The notes: generated by a model not told the origin, from the sequence alone. Positions 52,527 through 63,233 are shown, numbered from the stretch's first letter. The stretch: 64,000 bases of DNA from Candidatus Omnitrophota bacterium (GCA_029261065.1 JAJDCB010000022.1:443-64442), one strand, 5' to 3'. Numbers and translations are program-made.

Positions 52527-53312
52527 ATGAAAAACAACGTTCCTAAAAGCACAGTATTTATTCAAGACGTCCAAAAGCTTCGTCGTAGGGAGCATCGATT
52601 GAGAATGGGATTAACGATTGTTGAAGGTTATCCTGAGTTACGAAAAGCTATGGATGCTGGTGTGCGGATCGAAACACTTTATATATGTAAGAAACTTTTT
52701 ACACCGAAGCCTAACGAGTTTGATAATGAAAATATTATCTATGTGACTGTTGATGAGTTTGATCAAATGGCATTTGGTGATCGTTTAAAGGGAATATTAG
52801 CTTTATGCGCTCCCAAGCAAAATACATTCGTTGATTTAAAATTTAAAAAAAATCCTTTTTTTGTCGTGTTAGAAGGCGTTGAAAAGCCAGGAAATCTTGG
52901 AGCTGTTGTTCGTACCTGTGATGGCGCCGGTGTCGATGGTGTTATTATGTGTGAGGGGCGGACAGATGTTTATAATCATAATGTCGTTCGATCCAGTTTA
53001 GGGACCATTTTTGTGGTGCCGACTTTGGCTGCAACTAAAGAAGAAACCTTTGCCTTTTTTAGAAAGCATAACGTGCGGATTTATGCGACAACATCAAAGG
53101 CGACCACGTATTATTCAAATTGTGATTTTAATCATCCTAGTGCCATTGTTGTTGGTAGCGAGCATGAAGGGTTGTCCTCTTTTTGGTTGGAGAACTCTGA
53201 TGACGTTGTAAAAATTCCGATGGCAGGTCAATCGAGTAGCTTAAATGTGGGGATAAGTGCTTCAATTCTCATTTATGAGGCTATGCGTCAAAGGCAATTC
53301 AAAAAATCGTAA
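52527..53312 (+). CDS. SpoU/TrmH-family RNA 2'-O-methyltransferase
   Basis: SPOUT motifs VLEGVEKPGNLGAVVRTCDGAG, VVGSEHEGLS and SLNVGISASI. Confidence 0.85.
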   Translation: MKNNVPKSTVFIQDVQKLRRREHRLRMGLTIVEGYPELRKAMDAGVRIETLYICKKLFTPKPNEFDNENIIYVTVDEFDQMAFGDRLKGILALCAPKQNTFVDLKFKKNPFFVVLEGVEKPGNLGAVVRTCDGAGVDGVIMCEGRTDVYNHNVVRSSLGTIFVVPTLAATKEETFAFFRKHNVRIYATTSKATTYYSNCDFNHPSAIVVGSEHEGLSSFWLENSDDVVKIPMAGQSSSLNVGISASILIYEAMRQRQFKKS

Positions 53313-53542
53313 GTAGCTCTCTTGTGAAACATTTTTTGGTAATTCTGTTAGTTTTATCCTTTTCAAATACTTCCGTAATATAGAATTATAAACATATGCA
53401 GTTAATATAGTTATGAGCGATAACTATTTTGAAAGGGTTCCAGATAGCAAAATTTTACTGGTTTTTTTAAGGATTTTCCATATAATAGACTCTCCTTTAT
53501 ATGCGGCTTACAATTTTTTAACGTTAAGGAGGCAAATCAGTT

Positions 53543-53731
53543 ATGGCGGAATTCTGGGAACAACAATTGATGGATAGGCTTCTAAATCTGGCATTTGAAT
53601 ATCGTGTCAGCGAAAAAGAAATTATGCCTGCCAAACAAGTCAATGAAGTGATGGATTTTGTGAAGTTTCTCTTAAAGGAACAAGAACAAATAACCATCGA
53701 GAAGATAAAATCGTCAAAAATTAGTATTTAA
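53543..53731 (+). CDS. Small hypothetical protein heading the sulfur-carrier cluster
   Basis: 62 aa. Strong RBS taaggagg. 30 nt upstream of the ThiS-like gene. Confidence 0.4.
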   Translation: MAEFWEQQLMDRLLNLAFEYRVSEKEIMPAKQVNEVMDFVKFLLKEQEQITIEKIKSSKISI

Positions 53732-53760
53732 CGACCTGCAATAATATTTCAAAAGAATAC

Positions 53761-54000
53761 TTGAGGAGTTTTTTTATGAAAATTACTGTCAATGGCAAAG
53801 AAGAGACTATAGAGGGCGCAACTCTTTCTGTGAAGGGTCTTCTCAGTGCTTTAAATGTGTCCCAGCCGGATATGGTGTCTGTGCAACTTAACGGGGCCTT
53901 TGTAAACAAAGAAAATTATGAAACAACAACTGTCAAAGAGGCGGATACGGTTGATTTTCTTTATTTTATGGGTGGGGGAGCTCATATCTTTTCATTATGA
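53761..54000 (+). CDS. ThiS/MoaD-like sulfur-carrier protein with a C-terminal extension beyond the Gly-Gly (HcyS/CysO-like)
   Basis: MKITVNGKEETIEG...VQLNGAFV...DTVDFLYFMGGG then AHIFSL before the stop. The stop overlaps the metY start (ATGA). Confidence 0.75.
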   Translation: MRSFFMKITVNGKEETIEGATLSVKGLLSALNVSQPDMVSVQLNGAFVNKENYETTTVKEADTVDFLYFMGGGAHIFSL

Positions 54001-55235
54001 AAGATCCAGATTTTATAACTAAAATTTTACATAATCGTTTTTTAAAAAGCGATCCACATGGTTCAATGCATATGCCTGTGTATGAAAACGTGGCGTTTGA
54101 ATTTGAGAGTGCGGAAGATATCGAATTAGCCTTTCAACGTAAGAAGCCGGCACATATGTACTCGAGAATCAGCAACCCAACGGTAGAAGCCTTTGAACAA
54201 CGTATCAGGGCTGTCACCGATGCTTCGGGTGTTATTGCTGTTTCCTCCGGAATGGCTGCCATTACAAATGTAATCATGACGATTGCAGGTCAAGGCGATA
54301 ACATTATTACAACCAAACATCTTTTTGGAAATACGTATTCTTTATTTGAGAAGACCTTTAAAGATTGGGGTTTGGAAGTTCGATTTGCGGATTTAACACA
54401 AGCGGAATCTCTAAGCCAACTCATTGATGGGAAAACCAAAGCTATCTTTTTTGAAACCATTACCAATCCACAATTAGAAATTGTTGATATCAAGGCTTTA
54501 TCGGAGGTTGCGAAGAAAAATAATGTGTTATTGTTAGCAGACACAACATTAACTCCTCCGTATGTCTTTGAATCAAAGAAATTTGGTGTTGATGTCGAGG
54601 TTCTTTCAAGTACAAAATATATTTCCGGTGGTGCTACAACTGTTGGCGGTCTTATTATTGATAATGGTTTCTTTGATTGGAGCAAAAATGAGAAGTTAGC
54701 CGATGATGCCAAACAATTTGGTCCTTTTGCTTTTATTAGTCGACTCAGACGACAAGTTTATCGTAATTTAGGTTCATGCATGTCAGCGCATTGTGCTTTT
54801 TTACAAAGTGTTGGTTTAGAGACTCTTCCTTTGAGGGTTGATGTTTCTTGTGCGAATGCATTAACTGTTGCAAATTATTTAGAAGAAAATCCTTTAGTTA
54901 AGAAGGTCGATTATCCTGGATTACAAAGTTCACCTTATCATGATATTGCTGAGCAACAATTTGGAGATAGGTCTGGGGGACTTTTAACGTTTGATTTAGA
55001 ATCGAAGGACGTTTGTTTTAAGTTTATGAATAAACTAAAACTTATCAGACGTTCTACTAATCTAAATGATAATCGAACACTTATTCTGCATCCGGCGTCG
55101 ACCATTTTTTGTGAATATGATGATGCGCTTAAAGAAGAGATGCATGTTAGAGAAACAATGATAAGGCTGTCTGTTGGTATTGAGGGTGTGCATGATTTGA
55201 TGAATGATATCGAACAAGCGTTAGCGGTCGGATAA
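53997..55235 (+). CDS. metY: O-acetylhomoserine sulfhydrylase / Cys-Met-metabolism PLP-dependent enzyme (MetY-like)
   Basis: PF01053-type pattern. N-terminal MHMPVYENVAFEF. PLP-lysine motif SSTKYISGG. Confidence 0.85.
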   Translation: MKDPDFITKILHNRFLKSDPHGSMHMPVYENVAFEFESAEDIELAFQRKKPAHMYSRISNPTVEAFEQRIRAVTDASGVIAVSSGMAAITNVIMTIAGQGDNIITTKHLFGNTYSLFEKTFKDWGLEVRFADLTQAESLSQLIDGKTKAIFFETITNPQLEIVDIKALSEVAKKNNVLLLADTTLTPPYVFESKKFGVDVEVLSSTKYISGGATTVGGLIIDNGFFDWSKNEKLADDAKQFGPFAFISRLRRQVYRNLGSCMSAHCAFLQSVGLETLPLRVDVSCANALTVANYLEENPLVKKVDYPGLQSSPYHDIAEQQFGDRSGGLLTFDLESKDVCFKFMNKLKLIRRSTNLNDNRTLILHPASTIFCEYDDALKEEMHVRETMIRLSVGIEGVHDLMNDIEQALAVG

Positions 55236-55253
55236 TTTTTAAATAGCATGAAA

Positions 55254-55356
55254 GATACAAGTAACAAGATACAAGACACAAAAAATAATCAATGACCAAA
55301 AAGAAAATAACCAAAGAGTTTGATTATTCAGTCATTGGATATTGATTATTTTTTGC
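55254..55356. repeat. MITE-like palindromic repeat, copy A (acaagNNacaag heptamer-like units plus the caaaaaataatcaa...aataaccaaa hairpin)
   Basis: Close match to the reverse complement of the right arm of copy B at 56326..56451. Internal inverted repeat caaaaaataatcaatgac / gtcattgg..attgattattttttg. Confidence 0.6.
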
Positions 55357-55360
55357 CAAA

Positions 55361-55435
55361 GCGTCAAGAGACGCTGGTTCGGCCGTAGGCCGAATAACTT
55401 GCCCCGCCTTTGGCGGGGTCCCGCTAACAGCGGGA
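55361..55435. repeat. Array of four consecutive GC-rich stem-loops (gcgtc..gacgc; ttcggcc..ggccgaa; gccccgcc..ggcggggtc; cccgct..agcggg)
   Basis: Read directly from the sequence. Strongly GC-rich relative to the local AT-rich context. REP-like or a structured RNA. Confidence 0.5.
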
Positions 55436-55498
55436 TACCTTGTACCTTGGTTATTTTATAGAATTCTGACAATATCTACTTTCGGTTGAGGAGACAAT

Positions 55499-56305
55499 AT
55501 GGATTTTAATGAAGAACAATTAGAGCGTTATAGCCGTCATATCATTTTGCAAGATGTGAGTATTGAAGGTCAGCAGAAGATTATGGAAGGTAAGGTGCTT
55601 ATTATAGGAATGGGAGGCTTAGGTGCGCCTGTTGCTCTTTATTTAGCCGCCGCTGGTGTTGGGACGCTTGGGCTCGTTGATGGTGATGTTGTTGATTTAA
55701 GTAATTTGCAACGACAAGTCATTCATTTTACGCCTGATGTTGGAAAGCCAAAGGTTCTTTCTGCTAAAGAGAAGATTGCTCAAATTAATCCGGATGTTAA
55801 GGTTGTTACGCATCAAGAGTTAGCTTTGGCTAACAATATTGCTGATTTAATTAAGGACTATGATTTCATTATTGATGGAACGGATAACTTTCCTGCCAAG
55901 TTTTTAGTGAACGATGCTTGCGTGTTTGGCAAAAAGCCATTTTCACATGGGGGTATTTTAAGATTTGATGGACAAACCATGACGCATGTTCCAGGGGAAG
56001 CCTGTTATCGATGTGTTTTTGGTTTTGCGCCACCCTTAAATGCTGTTCCGTCATGTTCACAAGCAGGTGTTCTTGGAGCGATTGCCGGAATGCTTGGAAC
56101 GATTCAAGCAACCGAAGCGCTTAAGTTTTTAGTCGGTAAAGGAGAGTTGTTAACCAATCGGTTGTTAGTTTTTAATGCGTTAAACATGAATTTTAGAACA
56201 GTGAATTTGAAAAAAAATGCGAACTGCCCTGTGTGTGGAGACAATCCTTCGATTACGGAGTTGAGGGATGAGGAGCAGAAGGCTTGTGATATTACGCAGA
56301 GGTAA
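55499..56305 (+). CDS. ThiF/MoeB/HesA-family E1-like adenylyltransferase with a C-terminal zinc tetrad
   Basis: Nucleotide-binding GMGGLGAPVALYLAAAGVG. CxxC...CxxC (CYRC, CPVC). Confidence 0.85.
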   Translation: MDFNEEQLERYSRHIILQDVSIEGQQKIMEGKVLIIGMGGLGAPVALYLAAAGVGTLGLVDGDVVDLSNLQRQVIHFTPDVGKPKVLSAKEKIAQINPDVKVVTHQELALANNIADLIKDYDFIIDGTDNFPAKFLVNDACVFGKKPFSHGGILRFDGQTMTHVPGEACYRCVFGFAPPLNAVPSCSQAGVLGAIAGMLGTIQATEALKFLVGKGELLTNRLLVFNALNMNFRTVNLKKNANCPVCGDNPSITELRDEEQKACDITQR

Positions 56306-56325
56306 AGTAGGTAAAGGGAAGCAAT

Positions 56326-56451
56326 AATCAAGTTACAAGTTACAAGTTACAAAAAATAATCAAAAACCAGACAACAACAATAACCAAACATTTGGTTATT
56401 TGTAATTGGTCATTGTTTCTTTTTTGTAACTTGTATCTTGTAACTTGTACC
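56326..56451. repeat. MITE-like 126-nt imperfect palindrome, copy B, with three tandem caagtta heptamers in the left arm and a central perfect hairpin aataaccaaa-cat-tttggttatt
   Basis: Left and right arms are diverged reverse complements of each other. Fills the thiF-like / JAMM intergenic region. Confidence 0.6.
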
Positions 56452-56471
56452 TTCTGCGAGGTAATTAAATT

Positions 56472-56867
56472 ATGAAAATTCAAAAACAAATTTTAGACAA
56501 TATTATTAAGCACGCCAAAACCGGCTTGCCTTTAGAAATTTGCGGTTATCTCGCATCAAAAGACGGCGTGGTTATCAAGCATTACGAGCTTACCAACATT
56601 GATCAAAGCGAAGAGCATTTTTCTTTTGATCCAGCAGAACAATTTGCCACCGTTAAAGATGCTCGGGCCAATGGATTAGAATTATCAGCTGTTTATCACA
56701 GTCATCCTGTTACACCCGCGAGGCCATCACAAGAAGATATCAAGTTGGCGTATGATCCAAACATTAGTTATGTGATTGTTTCTATGGCTGAGCGAGAAGG
56801 TGATGTGAAGTCGTTTAAGATTCGTGAGGGTGTTGTTGAGAAGGAAGAGATTGAGGTTGTTAGTTAA
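56472..56867 (+). CDS. JAMM/MPN+ metalloprotease (Mec+/HcyD-like)
   Basis: EICGYL plus JAMM motif HSHPvtparpSqeD (H-x-H-x7-S-x2-D). Confidence 0.85.
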   Translation: MKIQKQILDNIIKHAKTGLPLEICGYLASKDGVVIKHYELTNIDQSEEHFSFDPAEQFATVKDARANGLELSAVYHSHPVTPARPSQEDIKLAYDPNISYVIVSMAEREGDVKSFKIREGVVEKEEIEVVS

Positions 56868-57013: not shown

Positions 57014-59473
57014 ATGATTAAGAAATCAGCTAATGCATTAAAGACTCATACGTTACCAGATAATCTAGGTGATGAAATAAACGTGCTTGAAACTTATGTT
57101 GAGAGGTTTAAGAAAGATGACCTTTCCTTAATGGAATTTAAAGTTCAGCGCGTTCCATTTGGTGTCTATGAGCAACGTAAAAAAGACACTTATATGATTC
57201 GTATTCGTTGTGCAGGTGCCTGTGTTCGCCCTGACCAACTTAAAAAAATTGCAGAGATTTCTCAAGTTCATGGAGCTGATTACATCCATTTAACGTCTCG
57301 CCAAGAAATCCAATTACATTATGTTTTAGTTGATAGTATTGTTCCTGTTATGTGGGAACTTAAAGCCGCTGATTTGGCTTCTCGTGGAGGAGGAGGAAAT
57401 ACGGTTCGAAATATTATGGCTCAAGAAGATGCTGGTATCGCCGAAGATGAGGCTTTTGATGTAACGCCTTATGCCATTGAGTTAACGTCACGTTTAGTTG
57501 TAGAGCCGGATTCTTGGAACTTACCAAGAAAGTTTAAGTTTGCTTTCTCTGGATCTTCCGATGATCGCGGTTATGCAACTCTTCATGATGTTGGTTACAT
57601 CGCCAAAATCAAAGACGGTGTAAAAGGTTTTACTGTTTATGTCGCTGGAGGAATGGGAGCAAAAGCGATGTTAGGAAATCTTTTGTTTGATTTTATTCCT
57701 GATACGGAAGTTTACAATGTTGCTAAGGCCACAAAAAATCTTTTTTACAAAAATGGTAATAGAAAAAATAAACATGCCTCACGCCTACGTTTTTTGTGGA
57801 AACAATTAGGTGGAGATGAGTTTAAACGTATCTTTTTTGAAGAATACGAAGCTGTAAAGAAAGAAAACTATCTACCTCTAGCTGTAAAAGATATTGATAA
57901 TGTTGGTATTGACCCGAATTCGGATATTGAACAACCAGCGGATCAAAAAGACTATGAGTTGTGGAAAAAGCGTTTTGTTCAATCACAAAGACAAGAAGGG
58001 CTTAATGCGATTATTTTACCTATTCATTTAGGTCATGTTGATAATGACAAAGCGATTAAACTTGCTGAGTTTTTGATGCCATTTGGTGAAAACGTTATCC
58101 GTATTCGAAAAGATCAAAACTTTTTGATCAGAAATATTATGGATAAATATCTACCGAATCTTTATAACATGTTGAAAGATACATTTGATAACTTTAATAG
58201 ACCATTTATCATTGATAAAGTTTTAGCCTGTGCCGGTGCCTCAACATGCCAATTGGGTATTTGTTTATCACCTGGAGCAGCTACTGCAACCAAAAGATAT
58301 TTAGAAACTTGTGATCTTGATTTGGATGCGGTTTCAGATGCCAAAGTTAACATCTCAGGATGTCCAAACTCTTGTGGTCAGCACCATGTGGCTGATTTAG
58401 GTTTCTTTGGAAAGGTAGCGCGCCGAGGAGATAAGGTTCATCCAGCATATAATGTCTTAGTCGGTTCTCTTGTCAAAGAAGGCGAAACCGAATTTGCTCA
58501 AAAAGTAGGAGAGATTGCCGCACGCGATATGCCTTTTATTACAAAAGCTGTTTTTAAATCTTATTTAGGAAAAAGAGCGAAATACGAAACCTTTAGAGAT
58601 TATATGCGTAGTGATGAAGGTAAAGAAGACGTAAAAGCTCTTTGTGTGAAATATAAATCGGACATTCCTGATTATGAAGTGGATAAAAATTATTATCTTG
58701 ATTGGGGAACTGATAAAACGTTTTCAGTAGCTGAACGTGGTAAGGGTGAATGTTCAGCCGGGATTTTTGATTTGATTGAAAGTGATTTAGGTCACATTCA
58801 ACAAGCCAAAAAACTTCTTGAGGAAATTAATGAAAATGGTGGTGATATTGGGCAAAAGCAAACGCTGTTAAGAGACGTCATTTATTATAGCGCTCGAATC
58901 CTTTTGATTTCAAAGGCGCTTGAGCCGCAGAATGAAAAAGAAGTTTACAGTTATTTCCGTGAGCATTTTATCAATACGGGATTAATTGCTGCTTCCTTTG
59001 ATGAGATCATTAAATTAGCGGAAGCCGGAGATTTTAAGACGTTGATCGAAAAAGAAGATCAAGTGTTTGCCTTGGCAGATCGTCTTAAATACCTTTATGA
59101 TGTCATGGATAGTGCCTTTCGATATAAACTTAAAGAGGGCGACAGTCTTCATAACGATAAGGTTGATTTTATTCCTGTGGTCCATCAAGCGGCAAGTGCG
59201 TCTGCCAAAGCTAAGACAGCCTCAACGACAGCAACAAAAACCGCAGATCCTGCTTTAGTCAAAGATTTTCGAGGCGTGGGTTGTCCAATGAACTTTGTGA
59301 AGACAAAGATGGAGTTGGCAAAACTCAAGTCTAAAGATATTCTTGAAATATGGTTAGACGATGGCCAACCGATTGAAAATGTCCCTGGTTCCGTTCGTGA
59401 AGAAGGGCATACTGTTTTAGAACAACAAAAGACGGATGAAGGTTATTGGTCCGTTGTTATAGAGAAGCAATAA
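57014..59473 (+). CDS. Sulfite/nitrite reductase-family siroheme-[4Fe-4S] enzyme fused to a C-terminal TusA-like sulfur-carrier domain
   Basis: NIR_SIR ferredoxin-like and 4Fe-4S modules with Cys clusters CAGASTCQLGIC and SGCPNSCGQHH. The C-terminal 70 aa (FRGVGCPMNFVKTKMELAKL...WSVVIEK) match the TusA CPxP-type motif. Confidence 0.8.
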   Translation: MIKKSANALKTHTLPDNLGDEINVLETYVERFKKDDLSLMEFKVQRVPFGVYEQRKKDTYMIRIRCAGACVRPDQLKKIAEISQVHGADYIHLTSRQEIQLHYVLVDSIVPVMWELKAADLASRGGGGNTVRNIMAQEDAGIAEDEAFDVTPYAIELTSRLVVEPDSWNLPRKFKFAFSGSSDDRGYATLHDVGYIAKIKDGVKGFTVYVAGGMGAKAMLGNLLFDFIPDTEVYNVAKATKNLFYKNGNRKNKHASRLRFLWKQLGGDEFKRIFFEEYEAVKKENYLPLAVKDIDNVGIDPNSDIEQPADQKDYELWKKRFVQSQRQEGLNAIILPIHLGHVDNDKAIKLAEFLMPFGENVIRIRKDQNFLIRNIMDKYLPNLYNMLKDTFDNFNRPFIIDKVLACAGASTCQLGICLSPGAATATKRYLETCDLDLDAVSDAKVNISGCPNSCGQHHVADLGFFGKVARRGDKVHPAYNVLVGSLVKEGETEFAQKVGEIAARDMPFITKAVFKSYLGKRAKYETFRDYMRSDEGKEDVKALCVKYKSDIPDYEVDKNYYLDWGTDKTFSVAERGKGECSAGIFDLIESDLGHIQQAKKLLEEINENGGDIGQKQTLLRDVIYYSARILLISKALEPQNEKEVYSYFREHFINTGLIAASFDEIIKLAEAGDFKTLIEKEDQVFALADRLKYLYDVMDSAFRYKLKEGDSLHNDKVDFIPVVHQAASASAKAKTASTTATKTADPALVKDFRGVGCPMNFVKTKMELAKLKSKDILEIWLDDGQPIENVPGSVREEGHTVLEQQKTDEGYWSVVIEKQ

Positions 59474-59505: not shown

Positions 59506-59826
59506 ATGGTATTTTTTCTAAAATACAAATCCATTAATGCGCAACAAGCAAAGAAGCTGCTTGATGAGAATCAAATAACATTAGTGGATACTCGCGAGCA
59601 TGAATCTTACCAAAAGTCTCATATTCCTGGGGCGATACATATTCACGATAATAATATTCATCAGCTGGATAGTTCAATAGATAAGACAAAGCCTATCCTT
59701 TGTTATTGTTATAAAGGAAAGGGAAGTCGATTAGTCTGCAAAAAATTATATAAGGCTGGGTTTCGCTTGGTATTTAACTTAAAGGGTGGATACGAGTCAT
59801 GGGAGATTGTATTTTCCACATTATGA
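59506..59826 (+). CDS. Single-domain rhodanese (sulfurtransferase)
   Basis: Rhodanese fold with the active-site loop CYCYKGKGS. The start may lie downstream of 59506. Confidence 0.7.
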   Translation: MVFFLKYKSINAQQAKKLLDENQITLVDTREHESYQKSHIPGAIHIHDNNIHQLDSSIDKTKPILCYCYKGKGSRLVCKKLYKAGFRLVFNLKGGYESWEIVFSTL

Positions 59827-61351: not shown

Positions 61352-62377
61352 TTATTTAGAGTATTTTTTGATGAGAGTATCGATATCGGTTTGGTGAAGG
61401 TCTAAATCTTTTGTTTTAAGAAACTCTTCGGTATAGAGTTTGGAGAAGGAACGTTCTCCTAGATCACAGCTGAAAGTAACAATGCGTTTGCCTGGACCAT
61501 TTTCAATAGCAATTTTTAGGGCACCTGCAAGATTAAGAGCAGAGCTACTTCCTAATAAAATACCGTCGTGTTGTCTGACATATTGAGAGATGGTTACTAA
61601 GTCTTGATCGGGGAGGCTAAAGGCTTCATCAATCTGGGCTTTGGCAAAGTTAGCAACTAAACGCATAATCCCAATGCCTTCGGTGATCGATCCGCCTTCA
61701 GATTTAAATTCTTTGGTATGAACATAAGAGCAGAGTCCGGAACCACCTGGATCAACAAGAACGACTTTTAGGTTTGGTAGTTTTTCTTTAAGGAAAGAGG
61801 AGCAGCCTCCAATTGTGCCACCAGTTCCAGCGACGGAGACAAGATAATCAAGTTTTCCATCCGTTTGTTCCAAGATTTCAGGGCCAGTTCGTGTATAATG
61901 AGCTTTGTAGTTGCTTAAGTTTTCAAATTGATTCGCCCACCAGTATTTGTCAGAATCTTCTTCAGCTAAACGGCGAGCGGTGTGATAGAAATGGTTTTCG
62001 TTTTTAAAAGGGCAGGGATCAACCAATTTTAATTGGGCGCCATGAAGTTCGATCATACGTTGTTTTTCAATGGCTTGGTTGTTGGGCATAACGGCTAAGC
62101 AGTCATACCCTAAAGCCTTGGCCACTAAAGCGAGACCAATACCGGTGTTACCCGCTGTTCCTTCAACAATGGTCATACCTTTTTTTAGCTGACCAGACTC
62201 AATCGCATCAAGCGTCATTTGAAGGGCGGCGCGATCTTTAATGGAGCCACCGGGGTTTAGATGTTCGCATTTGACAAAGATGTCGCAACCAGTAAGTTCA
62301 CTAAGGGAAGGCACACGCAGTAACGGCGTGTTACCGATAAGTTCTGATAGATTTTTTGCTGGGGTGGATGTATTCAT
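61352..62377 (-). CDS. Cysteine synthase / cystathionine beta-synthase-family PLP enzyme (CysK/CysM-like)
   Basis: PALP motifs NPGGSIKDRAAL and GTAGNTGIGLA. Start set at the internal Met (62377) because the longest ORF (to 62443) would overlap the divergent gene start. Confidence 0.75.
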   Translation of the reverse strand: MNTSTPAKNLSELIGNTPLLRVPSLSELTGCDIFVKCEHLNPGGSIKDRAALQMTLDAIESGQLKKGMTIVEGTAGNTGIGLALVAKALGYDCLAVMPNNQAIEKQRMIELHGAQLKLVDPCPFKNENHFYHTARRLAEEDSDKYWWANQFENLSNYKAHYTRTGPEILEQTDGKLDYLVSVAGTGGTIGGCSSFLKEKLPNLKVVLVDPGGSGLCSYVHTKEFKSEGGSITEGIGIMRLVANFAKAQIDEAFSLPDQDLVTISQYVRQHDGILLGSSSALNLAGALKIAIENGPGKRIVTFSCDLGERSFSKLYTEEFLKTKDLDLHQTDIDTLIKKYSK

Positions 62378-62441
62378 AAGATTATGAATCAAAGTATATC
62401 TTGGAAGGGAAATCTGGTCAAGTTTATATTGAAAGGGGATC

Positions 62442-63233
62442 ATGGATAAATATCAGATTCTTGGAATTGTGCTTTTTACACTTATTCTTCTCGCGGAGAA
62501 CTTCTTTCCCTATAGAAAGCATTATAAGCACCGGATGCGACATTATGGACGTAACACTGTTTTATCAGCCGTGAATGGATTGATTATGGGATTGTCTGGG
62601 GCCTATATCACCGTGCATGTCTTTTTATGGGTGGCTGAGAATAAGATAGGAATGCTTAATCAATTTGAAGCCTCATTTGTTATTAAAGCTATCTTGGCTT
62701 TTTTGATCTTTGATGCGTGGACTTATTTCTGGCATCGGATCAATCATGTGATTCCTTTTCTGTGGCGATTTCATCGTGTGCACCACAATGATCCGGCGAT
62801 GGATGTTAGTACTGCGCTACGATTCCATCCAATCGAAATATTGTTATCAGCCATTATTAATCTCGGTATCATTGCGGCCTTTGGGATTCGCCTGGAGCAT
62901 CTCATCGTCTATAAACTTATTTTTCATACCAATGTTTTTTTCCATCACAGTAACGTCGCTATTTCTGATTCCGTTGATAAGATGTTACGTTACATCATCG
63001 TGACACCCAATATGCATAAAGTGCATCACTCCTGCAAACAAGAAGAAACAGATTCAAACTTTGCGAGTATTCTCTCATGGTGGGATCGTTTATTTGGTTC
63101 TTATTGTGAACGTGATCCAAAGTCGATTATATTTGGATTAGACTCTTATATGGAAGAGCGATGGCAAACCGTTAAGGGGTTGTTTAAGTTGCCGTTTGCA
63201 GGGCCTTGTAAGAAAAAAGAAGATAACGGTTAA
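62442..63233 (+). CDS. Fatty-acid hydroxylase / sterol-desaturase-family membrane di-iron enzyme
   Basis: Histidine boxes HRINH, HRVHHND and HKVHHS. Confidence 0.8.
   Translation: MDKYQILGIVLFTLILLAENFFPYRKHYKHRMRHYGRNTVLSAVNGLIMGLSGAYITVHVFLWVAENKIGMLNQFEASFVIKAILAFLIFDAWTYFWHRINHVIPFLWRFHRVHHNDPAMDVSTALRFHPIEILLSAIINLGIIAAFGIRLEHLIVYKLIFHTNVFFHHSNVAISDSVDKMLRYIIVTPNMHKVHHSCKQEETDSNFASILSWWDRLFGSYCERDPKSIIFGLDSYMEERWQTVKGLFKLPFAGPCKKKEDNG

What the first reader, a model, noticed from the sequence alone, without database searches (positions are those of the whole stretch)
53761..54000. Sulfur-carrier protein carries a 6-7 residue tail after GG and is translationally coupled to metY
The ORF reads ...DTVDFLYFMGGGAHIFSL-stop. 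Canonical ThiS/MoaD end at GG. Known pro-forms have one residue (HcyS-Ala) or an amino-acid adduct (CysO). A hexapeptide tail implies obligatory JAMM processing. The stop overlaps the metY ATG (ATGA), which argues for stoichiometric co-expression of carrier and sulfhydrylase.
Basis: seen in the sequence. Interest (0 to 1): 0.6.

Follow-up and report, generated by a model that had tools for sequence, protein, structure and literature searches.

The report
Capped sulfur carrier for methionine synthesis
This small gene encodes a sulfur-carrier protein with six extra residues after its reactive Gly-Gly end, but such removable "caps" are the rule in this already-described methionine-synthesis gene cluster, so the finding is real but ordinary.

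Summary
A 74-aa ThiS-fold protein (ATG 53776, stop 53998-54000) ends ...FLYFMGGG-AHIFSL, and its TGA overlaps the ATG of the next gene (ATGA).

The diglycine is G67-G68, so the tail is 6 residues, not 7. It sits right after the last beta-strand and is predicted to be disordered.

The gene opens an operon: carrier, MetY, ThiF-like E1, JAMM protease, sulfite reductase-TusA, rhodanese. This is the protein-thiocarboxylate homocysteine pathway characterised in Wolinella succinogenes (HcyS/MetY/HcyF/HcyD). It was also catalogued as a gene-neighbourhood class in 2006. The window's MetY is closest to the Wolinella enzyme among solved structures.

The tail is not unusual:
- All 119 nearest homologues and at least 576 genome matches belong to one FLYFMGGG subfamily; 80 of those genome loci were examined.
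- Tails there are unconserved and run from 0 to 26 residues.
- 96-98% of members are capped, and 15-22% have tails of 6 or more.
- Three loci are in-frame fusions to MetY, ThiF or a DsrE-like protein.
- JAMM is present in 66 of 68 loci with enough flank.
- ATGA-type overlap with the next gene occurs in 22 of 76 loci.

Longer caps are already published (QbsE 2 residues, CxnE 10, MoaD-MoaE fusions). JAMM processing and translational coupling are reasonable inferences. "Stoichiometric" expression is not supported.

Verdict: new member of a known kind, low interest.

The parts
53776..54000 (+). HcyS-type sulfur-carrier protein, pro-form (74 aa). Beta-grasp core is residues 1-65, GGG is 66-68, and the cap AHIFSL is 69-74.
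   Evidence: Pfam ThiS 8.2e-11 with the profile end at residue 68. TIGR01683 scores 60.4 bits. PDB 2k5p/3cwi E=4e-19. AF2 mean pLDDT 86.9, last strand 58-63, residues 72-74 below pLDDT 50 (last block, 71-74, averages 46). Foldseek top hit 3cwi, TM 0.84-0.90.
53980..53997 (+). The six cap codons (GCT CAT ATC TTT TCA TTA = AHIFSL). They occupy the position that in relatives holds a short cap, a stop and an SD-bearing spacer.
   Evidence: The distance from the end of GGG to the metY ATG is 17 nt. Omnitrophota relatives L002, L006 and L008 have 1-3 residue caps, then a stop and a 16-79 nt spacer.
53763..53768 (+). Shine-Dalgarno GAGGAG of the carrier gene, 7 nt before the ATG.
53997..54000 (+). 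ATGA start/stop overlap between the carrier and metY.
   Evidence: The same -4 overlap with the next gene occurs in 22 of 76 related loci.
53997..55235 (+). O-acetylhomoserine sulfhydrylase (MetY) of the carrier-dependent Wolinella type.
   Evidence: Pfam Cys_Met_Meta_PP 2.7e-107. Best PDB hit is 3ri6, W. succinogenes OAHS, at 420 bits against 294 for the next hit. The alignment starts at residue 6, which supports this ATG.
55499..56305 (+). ThiF/MoeB-type E1-like adenylyltransferase without a rhodanese domain (HcyF-like).
   Evidence: Pfam ThiF 3e-80, 268 aa, no second domain. NCBIfam MoeB/UbaA-like.
56472..56867 (+). JAMM/MPN+ metalloprotease (HcyD/Mec+-like). Proposed to remove the cap and hydrolyse the carrier-homocysteine adduct.
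   Evidence: Pfam Prok-JAB 1.5e-24. E22 and H76-S-H78-x7-S86-x2-D89 are read from the translation. PDB 2kks 1.5e-32.
57014..59473 (+). Sulfite/nitrite reductase hemoprotein fused to a C-terminal TusA (SirA) domain. Proposed sulfide source and relay.
   Evidence: Pfam NIR_SIR, NIR_SIR_ferr and TusA at residues 751-818.
59506..59826 (+). Single-domain rhodanese, the last recognisable sulfur-transfer gene of the cluster.
   Evidence: Pfam Rhodanese 1.3e-22.

Best explanation
The ORF encodes the pro-form of an HcyS-type sulfur-carrier protein, the first gene of a protein-thiocarboxylate homocysteine (methionine) biosynthesis operon.

Proposed mechanism, all steps inferred by homology with the Wolinella succinogenes system:
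1. The operon's JAMM protease cuts after G68 and removes AHIFSL.
2. The ThiF-like E1 adenylates the exposed Gly carboxylate.
3. Sulfide made by the sulfite reductase, possibly relayed through the TusA domain and the rhodanese, converts the adenylate to a thiocarboxylate.
4. MetY condenses the carrier thiocarboxylate with O-acetylhomoserine.
5. The same JAMM hydrolyses the resulting carrier-homocysteine amide. This releases homocysteine and regenerates the carrier.

The cap itself most likely has no sequence-specific function. Because everything after GGG is removed, the position of the stop codon is free to drift. In this lineage the early stop and the separate ribosome-binding spacer seen in relatives are absent. 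The reading frame therefore runs on to the ATGA at the metY start, and metY translation is probably coupled to carrier termination.
For: Shown here:
- ThiS fold with GGG directly after the last strand and a low-confidence tail.
- Gene order carrier-MetY-ThiF-JAB-SiR/TusA-rhodanese.
- Intact JAMM motif.
- MetY is closest to W. succinogenes 3ri6.
- The same operon recurs across many phyla in the 80 loci examined, drawn from at least 576 genome matches, with JAB in 66 of 68 loci.
- Tails after the invariant FLYFMGGG are unconserved in sequence, from 0 to 26 residues, with a median of 2.
- Natural in-frame fusions of the carrier to MetY, ThiF or DrsE_2 exist. Whatever follows GGG must therefore be removable.
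- Campylobacterota members end GGG-A, matching the HcyS-Ala description.
- Seven of ten loci with tails of 5 or more residues run into the next gene.
- metY lacks an SD at 5-9 nt, whereas the carrier, thiF and SiR genes have one at 6-8 nt and the JAB gene a weaker GAGG about 12 nt upstream.

From the literature:
- The W. succinogenes MetY uses a carrier-protein thiocarboxylate (PMC8191291; PMC6225789).
- The neighbourhood class with JAB, an E1 lacking rhodanese, SirA, sulfite reductase and OAH sulfhydrylase was listed for Gmet and Wsuc (PMC1779556).
- Capped carriers need a JAMM protease (PMC6006322; PMC5925218).
Against: - No biochemical step was or could be tested here.
- The primary Wolinella paper (Krishnamoorthy & Begley, JACS 2011) was not readable in the library. 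The HcyD cap-removal and adduct-hydrolysis steps rest on my own knowledge of it.
- Caps are nearly universal (only 2-4% of members end at GGG). This is hard to square with purely neutral drift and hints that having some cap is selected.
- NCBIfam scores the protein above the cut-off of the thiamin ThiS equivalog model.
- Cleavage of a 6-residue cap by this particular JAMM is extrapolated from 1-2 residue caps and from fusion cleavage in other systems.
Confidence: 0.8

Rival explanations
1. The cap is a selected control device, not a neutral by-product. It keeps the carrier inert, so that neither its own E1 nor non-cognate E1s such as ThiF or MoeB can adenylate it until the operon's JAMM is present. 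This would insulate or gate sulfur flow. Only the presence of a cap matters, not its sequence.
For: 96-98% of subfamily members carry at least one residue after GGG, even where a long intergenic spacer follows and no overlap constrains the stop codon. JAB is in the operon in 66 of 68 loci.
Against: Cap length and sequence are completely unconstrained. Three genomes and two metagenomic proteins end at GGG, and the one uncapped locus with enough flank to check (L047) still has JAB. The JAMM is needed anyway for adduct hydrolysis, so its presence does not argue for gating. No experiment bears on cross-activation.
Confidence: 0.25
2. The protein is the thiamin-pathway ThiS, as automatic annotation would name it. 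The neighbouring genes are coincidental.
For: TIGR01683 'thiS' equivalog scores 60.4 bits against a cut-off of 37.45. Several sources name homologues 'sulfur carrier protein ThiS'. The PDB homologue 3cwi was deposited as a thiamine-biosynthesis protein.
Against: No thiG, thiH, thiO or thiE-type domain is among the operon genes and most flanking ORFs scanned between 46.6 and 62.4 kb. The neighbours are MetY, E1, JAB, SiR-TusA and rhodanese. The same linkage to MetY, JAB and SiR is conserved in about 80 genomes. Iyer et al. note that JAB is completely absent from thiamin and MoCo pathways (PMC1779556). Canonical ThiS proteins are uncapped.
Confidence: 0.04
3. The tail is an artefact: a sequencing or assembly indel in the G5 run (53974-53978), or a missed stop. 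The true protein would then end at or near GGG, or would be fused to MetY.
For: A run of five G lies exactly at the Gly codons. One extra G would put the carrier in frame with MetY (reading), like the L076 fusion.
Against: An independent Logan assembly contig gives the identical sequence. Tails of comparable length are common in the family. The observed frame gives a clean ATGA junction of the type seen in 22 of 76 relatives.
Confidence: 0.04
4. The carrier is a ubiquitin-like protein modifier (SAMP/TtuB-like) that is conjugated to target proteins. The JAMM would act as the deconjugase rather than as a biosynthetic enzyme.
For: The E1 scores well on the SAMP-activating UbaA model and the JAB on a desampylase model, though both are below cut-off. 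Iyer et al. raised this possibility for JAB-linked operons.
Against: No E2/E3-like gene is present. The linkage to MetY and sulfite reductase is tight and conserved. The homologous Wolinella system was shown to be biosynthetic (cited).
Confidence: 0.05

Closest known systems
HcyS / MetY / HcyF / HcyD system of Wolinella succinogenes (protein-thiocarboxylate-dependent methionine biosynthesis; Krishnamoorthy & Begley 2011; MetY structure 3RI6, Tran et al. 2011)
   Same: A ThiS-fold carrier with a capped GGG end. MetY is most similar to 3ri6 (420 bits). The E1 lacks a rhodanese domain. A JAMM protease and a sulfite reductase are present. Campylobacterota members of the same FLYFMGGG subfamily end GGG-A.
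   Different: The cap is 6 residues instead of 1. The gene order is carrier then MetY, with an ATGA overlap, whereas Campylobacterota loci have MetY upstream and the carrier overlapping ThiF. TusA is fused to the sulfite reductase, and there is an extra rhodanese. The host is probably Omnitrophota-like; the closest operon is L008, with 62-81% protein identity.
Gene-neighbourhood class '4e' of Iyer, Burroughs & Aravind 2006 (PMC1779556): ThiS/MoaD + JAB + E1 + SirA + sulfite reductase + O-acetylhomoserine sulfhydrylase
   Same: The component list is the same, including an E1 without rhodanese and the obligatory SirA/TusA. Geobacter metallireducens, listed there, supplies the closest solved carrier structure (3cwi/2k5p, ending GGGK).
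   Different: That work is a comparative-genomic catalogue. It did not tabulate cap lengths. The passages I searched mention processing only for fusions.
Capped sulfur-carrier proteins of secondary metabolism: QbsE (GG-CF, removed by QbsD), PtmS2/PtmS3 (GG-MV, GG-C), CxnE (GG + SEAARAEESR, with CxnF)
   Same: C-terminal residues after GG must be removed by a clustered JAMM before adenylation.
   Different: They belong to different carrier subfamilies and make different products (siderophore, thioacid antibiotics, chuangxinmycin). They have no MetY partner.
CysO / CysM / Mec+ of Mycobacterium tuberculosis
   Same: A carrier thiocarboxylate is used by a PLP enzyme, and a JAMM hydrolyses the carrier-amino-acid adduct. 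Many related loci carry a PALP (CysK/CysM-like) gene just upstream of the carrier.
   Different: CysO is translated uncapped. In the window the PALP gene is 1.5 kb beyond the cluster on the opposite strand (61352-62443). It scores as cysteine synthase A.
MoaD-MoaE fusions cleaved by JAMM (Deinococcus DRJAMM, archaeal HvJAMM1/PfJAMM1)
   Same: They show that JAMM proteases release beta-grasp carriers from long linear C-terminal extensions. This parallels the ThiS-MetY, ThiS-ThiF and ThiS-DrsE fusions found here.
   Different: They act in the molybdopterin pathway and involve a different carrier family.

Membership tests
ThiS/MoaD beta-grasp sulfur carriers (PF02597) | Beta-grasp fold with significant profile and structure matches | tested here: met
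   Pfam 8.2e-11. PDB 2k5p 4e-19. AF2 pLDDT 86.9. Foldseek 3cwi TM 0.84-0.90, then E. coli and B. subtilis ThiS.
ThiS/MoaD beta-grasp sulfur carriers (PF02597) | Gly-Gly immediately after the last beta-strand | tested here: met
   Last strand is 58-63 and GGG is 66-68. The profile ends on G68. GGG is invariant in 32 aligned homologues.
ThiS/MoaD beta-grasp sulfur carriers (PF02597) | Free Gly-Gly carboxyl terminus in the primary translation product | tested here: not met
   Six residues (AHIFSL) follow G68. This is the defining difference of 'capped' carriers, not an exclusion from the fold family.
HcyS-type carrier / protein-thiocarboxylate homocysteine pathway | Carrier gene clustered with MetY, an E1-like adenylyltransferase, a JAMM protease and a sulfite reductase | tested here: met
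   All five lie on the + strand between 53776 and 59473. The same set is seen in most of the 80 related loci.
HcyS-type carrier / protein-thiocarboxylate homocysteine pathway | MetY belongs to the carrier-dependent (Wolinella) type | tested here: met
   Best solved relative is 3ri6 at 420 bits, E=9e-125. The next is T. maritima MetY at 294 bits. This is similarity only; no carrier-binding residues were examined.
HcyS-type carrier / protein-thiocarboxylate homocysteine pathway | Capped C-terminus removed by the JAMM protease | not testable with these tools
   The cap is present and the JAMM catalytic motif is intact. Cleavage itself needs biochemistry.
HcyS-type carrier / protein-thiocarboxylate homocysteine pathway | Thiocarboxylate formation and transfer to O-acetylhomoserine | not testable with these tools
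   Inferred from homology only.
Thiamin-pathway ThiS (TIGR01683 equivalog) | Score above the curated cut-off | tested here: met
   60.4 bits against 37.45. The model evidently does not separate the HcyS subfamily.
Thiamin-pathway ThiS (TIGR01683 equivalog) | Genomic association with thiG, thiH, thiO or thiE, and absence of JAB | tested here: not met
   The neighbours are MetY, ThiF, JAB, SiR-TusA and rhodanese. Flanking genes scanned are SpoU, DUF3108, MORN/DUF6745, FeoB and PALP. The rest of the 64-kb window was not scanned.
CysO/CysM/Mec+ cysteine pathway | Carrier adjacent to a CysM-type PALP enzyme | tested here: inconclusive
   In the window the PALP gene is non-adjacent and on the opposite strand (61352-62443). 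In about 35 related loci a PALP gene directly precedes the carrier, so a dual Cys/Met role of the family is possible.
Ubiquitin-like protein conjugation systems (SAMP/TtuB/bacterial Ubl) | E2/E3-like genes or evidence of protein conjugation | not tested
   No such domain was found among the scanned neighbours. Conjugation cannot be assessed from sequence.

The most novel reading that the evidence does not exclude
A cap of arbitrary sequence is positively selected across the whole HcyS subfamily (96-98% capped). It would act as a zymogen-like lock that keeps the carrier unreactive towards E1 enzymes until the operon's own JAMM is made. The window's long hydrophobic cap, translated up to the metY start, would then be one extreme of a general insulation strategy for sulfur-carrier pathways.
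Probability: 0.2. Interest if true: 0.4.

Novelty: new member of a known kind. Interest (0 to 1): 0.17.

Why it matters
Its main value is for annotation. Carriers of this subfamily are routinely named 'ThiS'. The protein-thiocarboxylate route to homocysteine is missing from pathway databases (PMC5764234). Genomes like this one, probably an Omnitrophota-like uncultured bacterium, may therefore be wrongly scored as lacking methionine synthesis or as having a thiamin gene.

The family survey adds a modest general point. In this pathway anything may follow GGG, from nothing to a whole enzyme, and the carrier gene is usually packed tightly against the next gene. None of this changes the understanding of the mechanism.

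Tried and rejected
1. Idea: the three Gly codons (GGAGGNGG) are selected as the Shine-Dalgarno for the next gene, with the cap as the spacer. An SD-like motif at 4-12 nt does lie in the Gly codons in 27 of 48 tightly packed loci. But GGAGG is no more frequent there than in loosely packed loci (25/46 against 18/30, Fisher p=0.65). It comes for free with Gly codons. Rejected as evidence of selection.

2. Riboswitch or leader upstream of the operon. Rfam found no match at E<=1 in 53200-54100 and nothing at gathering score in the whole window.

3. Organism identity. Exact-sequence cluster look-up gave no names. The genome scan did not return the source genome. Only 'closest to Omnitrophota MAGs' can be said.

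4. Reading the primary Wolinella papers. PMC3089676, PMC3176619 and PMID 21162571 are not held. Searches for HcyD/HcyF returned only homocysteine-abbreviation hits.

5. Promoter and terminator pattern scans were uninformative. Counts were near shuffle expectation and no terminator-like site was found after the carrier gene or after metY.

6. Conservation of the tail sequence. No homologue shares AHIFSL, and the nearest protein is only 69% identical. Whether this tail is stable within the lineage cannot be tested.

Full report
**1. The observation**

The window between 53761 and 54000 holds an open frame ending ...DTVDFLYFMGGGAHIFSL followed by TGA. The mechanical ORF starts at a TTG. The biologically sensible start is the ATG at 53776, which has GAGGAG 7 nt upstream. 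All homologues start at that position. The product is then 74 aa.

The stop codon is at 53998-54000 and the ATG of the next ORF is at 53997-53999. This is the classic ATGA four-base overlap. The next ORF (412 aa) aligns to the Pfam Cys_Met_Meta_PP profile from its residue 8. It aligns to the W. succinogenes enzyme from its residue 6. The overlapping ATG is therefore the right start.

An independently assembled short contig (Logan SRR15505515) encodes the identical 74-aa protein and the same overlap.

**2. Where the Gly-Gly is**

- The Pfam ThiS profile (76 positions) and TIGR01683 (64 positions) both end on residue 68.
- B. subtilis ThiS (1tyg_B) ends ...VGGG, aligned to residues 66-68.
- The AlphaFold model is confident (mean pLDDT 86.9). 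Its last beta-strand spans 58-63, followed by a coil. Confidence falls to a mean of 46 over 71-74, with 72-74 below 50.
- Foldseek finds the Geobacter metallireducens 'ThiS' structures 3cwi/2k5p first (55% identity, TM 0.84-0.90). ThiS from E. coli and B. subtilis come next.
- Among relatives, a few end exactly at GGG. One has AGG in place of GGG.

The functional diglycine is therefore G67-G68 and the tail is the six residues AHIFSL.

**3. The surroundings**

On the same strand, in order:

| Gene | Coordinates |
|---|---|
| Carrier | 53776-54000 |
| MetY | 53997-55235 |
| ThiF-family E1 without rhodanese domain | 55499-56305 |
| Prok-JAB protease | 56472-56867 |
| Sulfite/nitrite-reductase hemoprotein with C-terminal TusA domain | 57014-59473 |
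| Single-domain rhodanese | 59506-59826 |

The JAB protein carries E22 and H76-S-H78-x7-S86-x2-D89, the complete JAMM motif (translation; alignment). Among solved structures, MetY is far closer to 3ri6 (420 bits) than to any other sulfhydrylase; the next scores 294 bits. 3ri6 is the W. succinogenes O-acetylhomoserine sulfhydrylase. Its sulfur donor is a carrier-protein thiocarboxylate rather than bisulfide (PMC8191291).

**4. The family**

The 119 best database homologues all carry the invariant motif FLYFMGGG, followed by a tail. A scan of one genome per species found at least 576 matches. The 80 best come from Omnitrophota, Bacteroidota, Spirochaetota, Desulfobacterota, Campylobacterota, Planctomycetota, Bacillota and others.

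Mapping the window's proteins onto these loci shows two recurrent operon layouts:
- carrier-MetY-ThiF-JAB-SiR(TusA);
- carrier-ThiF-(TusA)-JAB-SiR, often with a PALP cysteine-synthase-like gene just upstream.

JAB is present in 66 of the 68 loci that have at least 3.5 kb of downstream sequence. The closest operon is in an Omnitrophota MAG (L008: MetY 77%, ThiF 81%, JAB 73%, SiR 62% identity).

**5. How unusual is the tail?**

It is not unusual.

| Tail after GGG | 119 metagenomic proteins | 80 genome loci |
|---|---|---|
| Median length | 2 | 2 |
| 0 residues | 2% | 4% |
| 6 or more residues | 22% | 15% |

- The genome set has 1-3 residues in 76% of loci.
- Non-fusion tails reach 26 residues among the metagenomic proteins and 21 among the genome loci.
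- Tail sequences are unrelated to one another.
- Three loci are in-frame fusions, confirmed by Pfam: carrier-MetY (L076), carrier-ThiF (L055) and carrier-DrsE_2 (L042). Two of these MAGs carry 'MFD' sample names. From my own knowledge this project used long-read assembly, which is prone to indels, so L076 and L042 deserve caution.
- Campylobacterota and Helicobacteraceae members end GGG-A. This is the 'HcyS-Ala' form I recall from the Wolinella work.

**6. How unusual is the overlap?**

Also not unusual. Among 76 related loci, the gap between the carrier's stop and the next gene's start is distributed as follows:

| Spacing | Loci |
|---|---|
| Overlap of 4 nt (ATGA/GTGA/TTGA) | 22 |
| Overlap of 1 nt | 7 |
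| Other overlaps | 7 |
| Gap of 0-4 nt | 12 |

The downstream partner is MetY in 44 loci and ThiF in 30. Of the ten non-fusion loci with tails of 5 or more residues, seven run into the next gene.

In the window, the distance from the last Gly codon to the metY ATG is 17 nt. Omnitrophota relatives have a 1-3 residue cap, then a stop, then a 16-79 nt spacer. In L002 and L006 that spacer carries a Shine-Dalgarno. The window's cap therefore amounts to that spacer being translated.

The carrier, thiF and SiR genes have GAGGAG or GGAG 6-8 nt before their ATG, and the JAB gene has a weaker GAGG about 12 nt upstream. metY has only GGAG 16 nt away, and the rhodanese gene has no SD at all. This fits translation of metY by termination-reinitiation coupling. 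That is an inference, not a demonstration. Nothing supports a 1:1 stoichiometry, and the carrier is recycled in the known mechanism.

**7. Mechanism (inferred)**

1. The JAMM removes AHIFSL after G68.
2. The E1 adenylates G68.
3. Sulfide from the sulfite reductase, possibly relayed by TusA and rhodanese, gives the thiocarboxylate.
4. MetY joins it to O-acetylhomoserine.
5. The JAMM hydrolyses the carrier-homocysteine amide.

These steps follow the Wolinella system, which is cited as established in PMC6225789 and PMC8191291. The details of HcyD action are from my own knowledge of Krishnamoorthy & Begley 2011, which the library does not hold.

JAMM enzymes can remove longer linear extensions. 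This is documented for MoaD-MoaE fusions and SAMP fusions (PMC8832034) and proposed for the CxnE decapeptide (PMC5925218).

**8. Comparison with what is known**

Iyer, Burroughs and Aravind (2006) listed exactly this neighbourhood: ThiS/MoaD, JAB, an E1 lacking rhodanese, SirA, sulfite reductase and O-acetylhomoserine sulfhydrylase. They named Geobacter metallireducens and W. succinogenes among others. They also suggested that JAB frees the carrier's C-terminus where it is fused to another protein.

'Capped' carriers are a recognised category: QbsE has CF, PtmS2 has MV, PtmS3 has C, and CxnE has a decapeptide.

**9. Rivals**

- Thiamin ThiS: only the generic TIGR01683 score supports it. The conserved neighbourhood contradicts it, as does the reported absence of JAB from thiamin pathways.
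- Sequencing artefact at the G5 run: possible in principle, and one extra G would fuse the carrier to MetY. It is unsupported.
- Protein-modifier role: cannot be excluded by sequence, but there are no E2/E3 genes.
- Selected 'lock': the most interesting alternative is that having a cap is itself selected, because uncapped members are so rare (2-4%). Sequence data alone cannot separate this from historical contingency.

**10. Verdict**

This is a real feature, correctly read, in a correctly guessed functional context. It is an ordinary member of a widespread, already characterised system. The tail length lies in the upper fifth of its family's normal range. Novelty: new member of a known kind. 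Interest is low.

Noticed in passing
window 55236-55498 and 56306-56471: The unusually long spacers metY-thiF (263 nt) and thiF-JAB (166 nt) each carry a copy of a palindromic repeat built from ACAAGTT/ACAAGAT heptamers. 55258-55298 matches 56329-56369 at 85%. Hairpin arms 56329-56369 and 56407-56447 are 88% complementary. Predicted folds are -86 and -55 kcal/mol. The core motif occurs nowhere else in the 64-kb window (3 matches against 0 expected). The closest relative, L008, has spacers of about 10 nt at these positions, so these look like inserted MITE/REP-like elements. They could uncouple expression of carrier+MetY from E1 and JAMM.
   Followed up: partly
L060:7205-7425 and L060:9540-9670; also L009, L014, L023, L038, L058 (carrier-ThiF spacers): Another Omnitrophota MAG (L060) has a different, strongly folding palindromic element (TGTAGGGGTTCGATT...AAGCCCCTACA) in two spacers of the same operon. 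Several Bacteroidales loci have spacers of about 100 nt with short tandem or inverted repeats such as TTTACGATTTACGATTG and AATAGTAAATAGTAAATG. Structured intergenic insertions thus recur in this operon across phyla.
   Followed up: no
L076:7001-8446, L055:7001-8029, L042:7001-7678: In-frame fusions of the carrier to MetY (Spirochaetota MAG), to ThiF (uncultured bacterium) and to a DsrE/DrsE_2 protein (Bacteroidota MAG), confirmed by Pfam. L076 and L042 have 'MFD' isolate names. From my own knowledge, not checked here, this project used long-read assembly, so an indel artefact is possible. L055 is not an MFD assembly. A ThiS-MetY fusion would be a natural test substrate for the JAMM.
   Followed up: partly
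window 59823-59826: A second ATGA stop/start overlap in the cluster. The rhodanese stop (TGA 59824-59826) overlaps an ATG at 59823 that would start a 493-aa protein with no Pfam match. The local sequence CATTATGAAA is identical to the carrier/metY junction. The mechanical ORF list places the start of that ORF earlier, at 59799.
   Followed up: partly
window 53974-53978: A run of five G spans the Gly codons. One extra G would place the carrier in frame with MetY (linker SSYLFI), reproducing the L076-type fusion. One fewer would destroy the third Gly.
   Followed up: no
window 53543-53731: A 62-aa ORF with a strong AAGGAGG Shine-Dalgarno lies just upstream of the carrier gene. It was also called as a gene in the Logan contig. 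It has only a weak, sub-threshold DUF2281 match (20.4 bits against 26.5). Its relation to the operon is unknown.
   Followed up: no
window 61352-62443 (minus strand): A PALP-fold cysteine synthase A-like gene (NF007989, 448 bits, above cut-off) lies 1.5 kb beyond the cluster on the opposite strand. In about 35 related loci a PALP gene (31-39% identical) sits directly upstream of the carrier. This suggests that in many genomes the same carrier also feeds a CysM-like cysteine synthase.
   Followed up: partly
window 53776-54000 (annotation issue): The NCBIfam thiamin 'thiS' equivalog model scores this HcyS-type carrier well above its cut-off (60.4 against 37.45). Public sources name homologues 'sulfur carrier protein ThiS'. 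The subfamily is probably systematically mis-named.
   Followed up: partly
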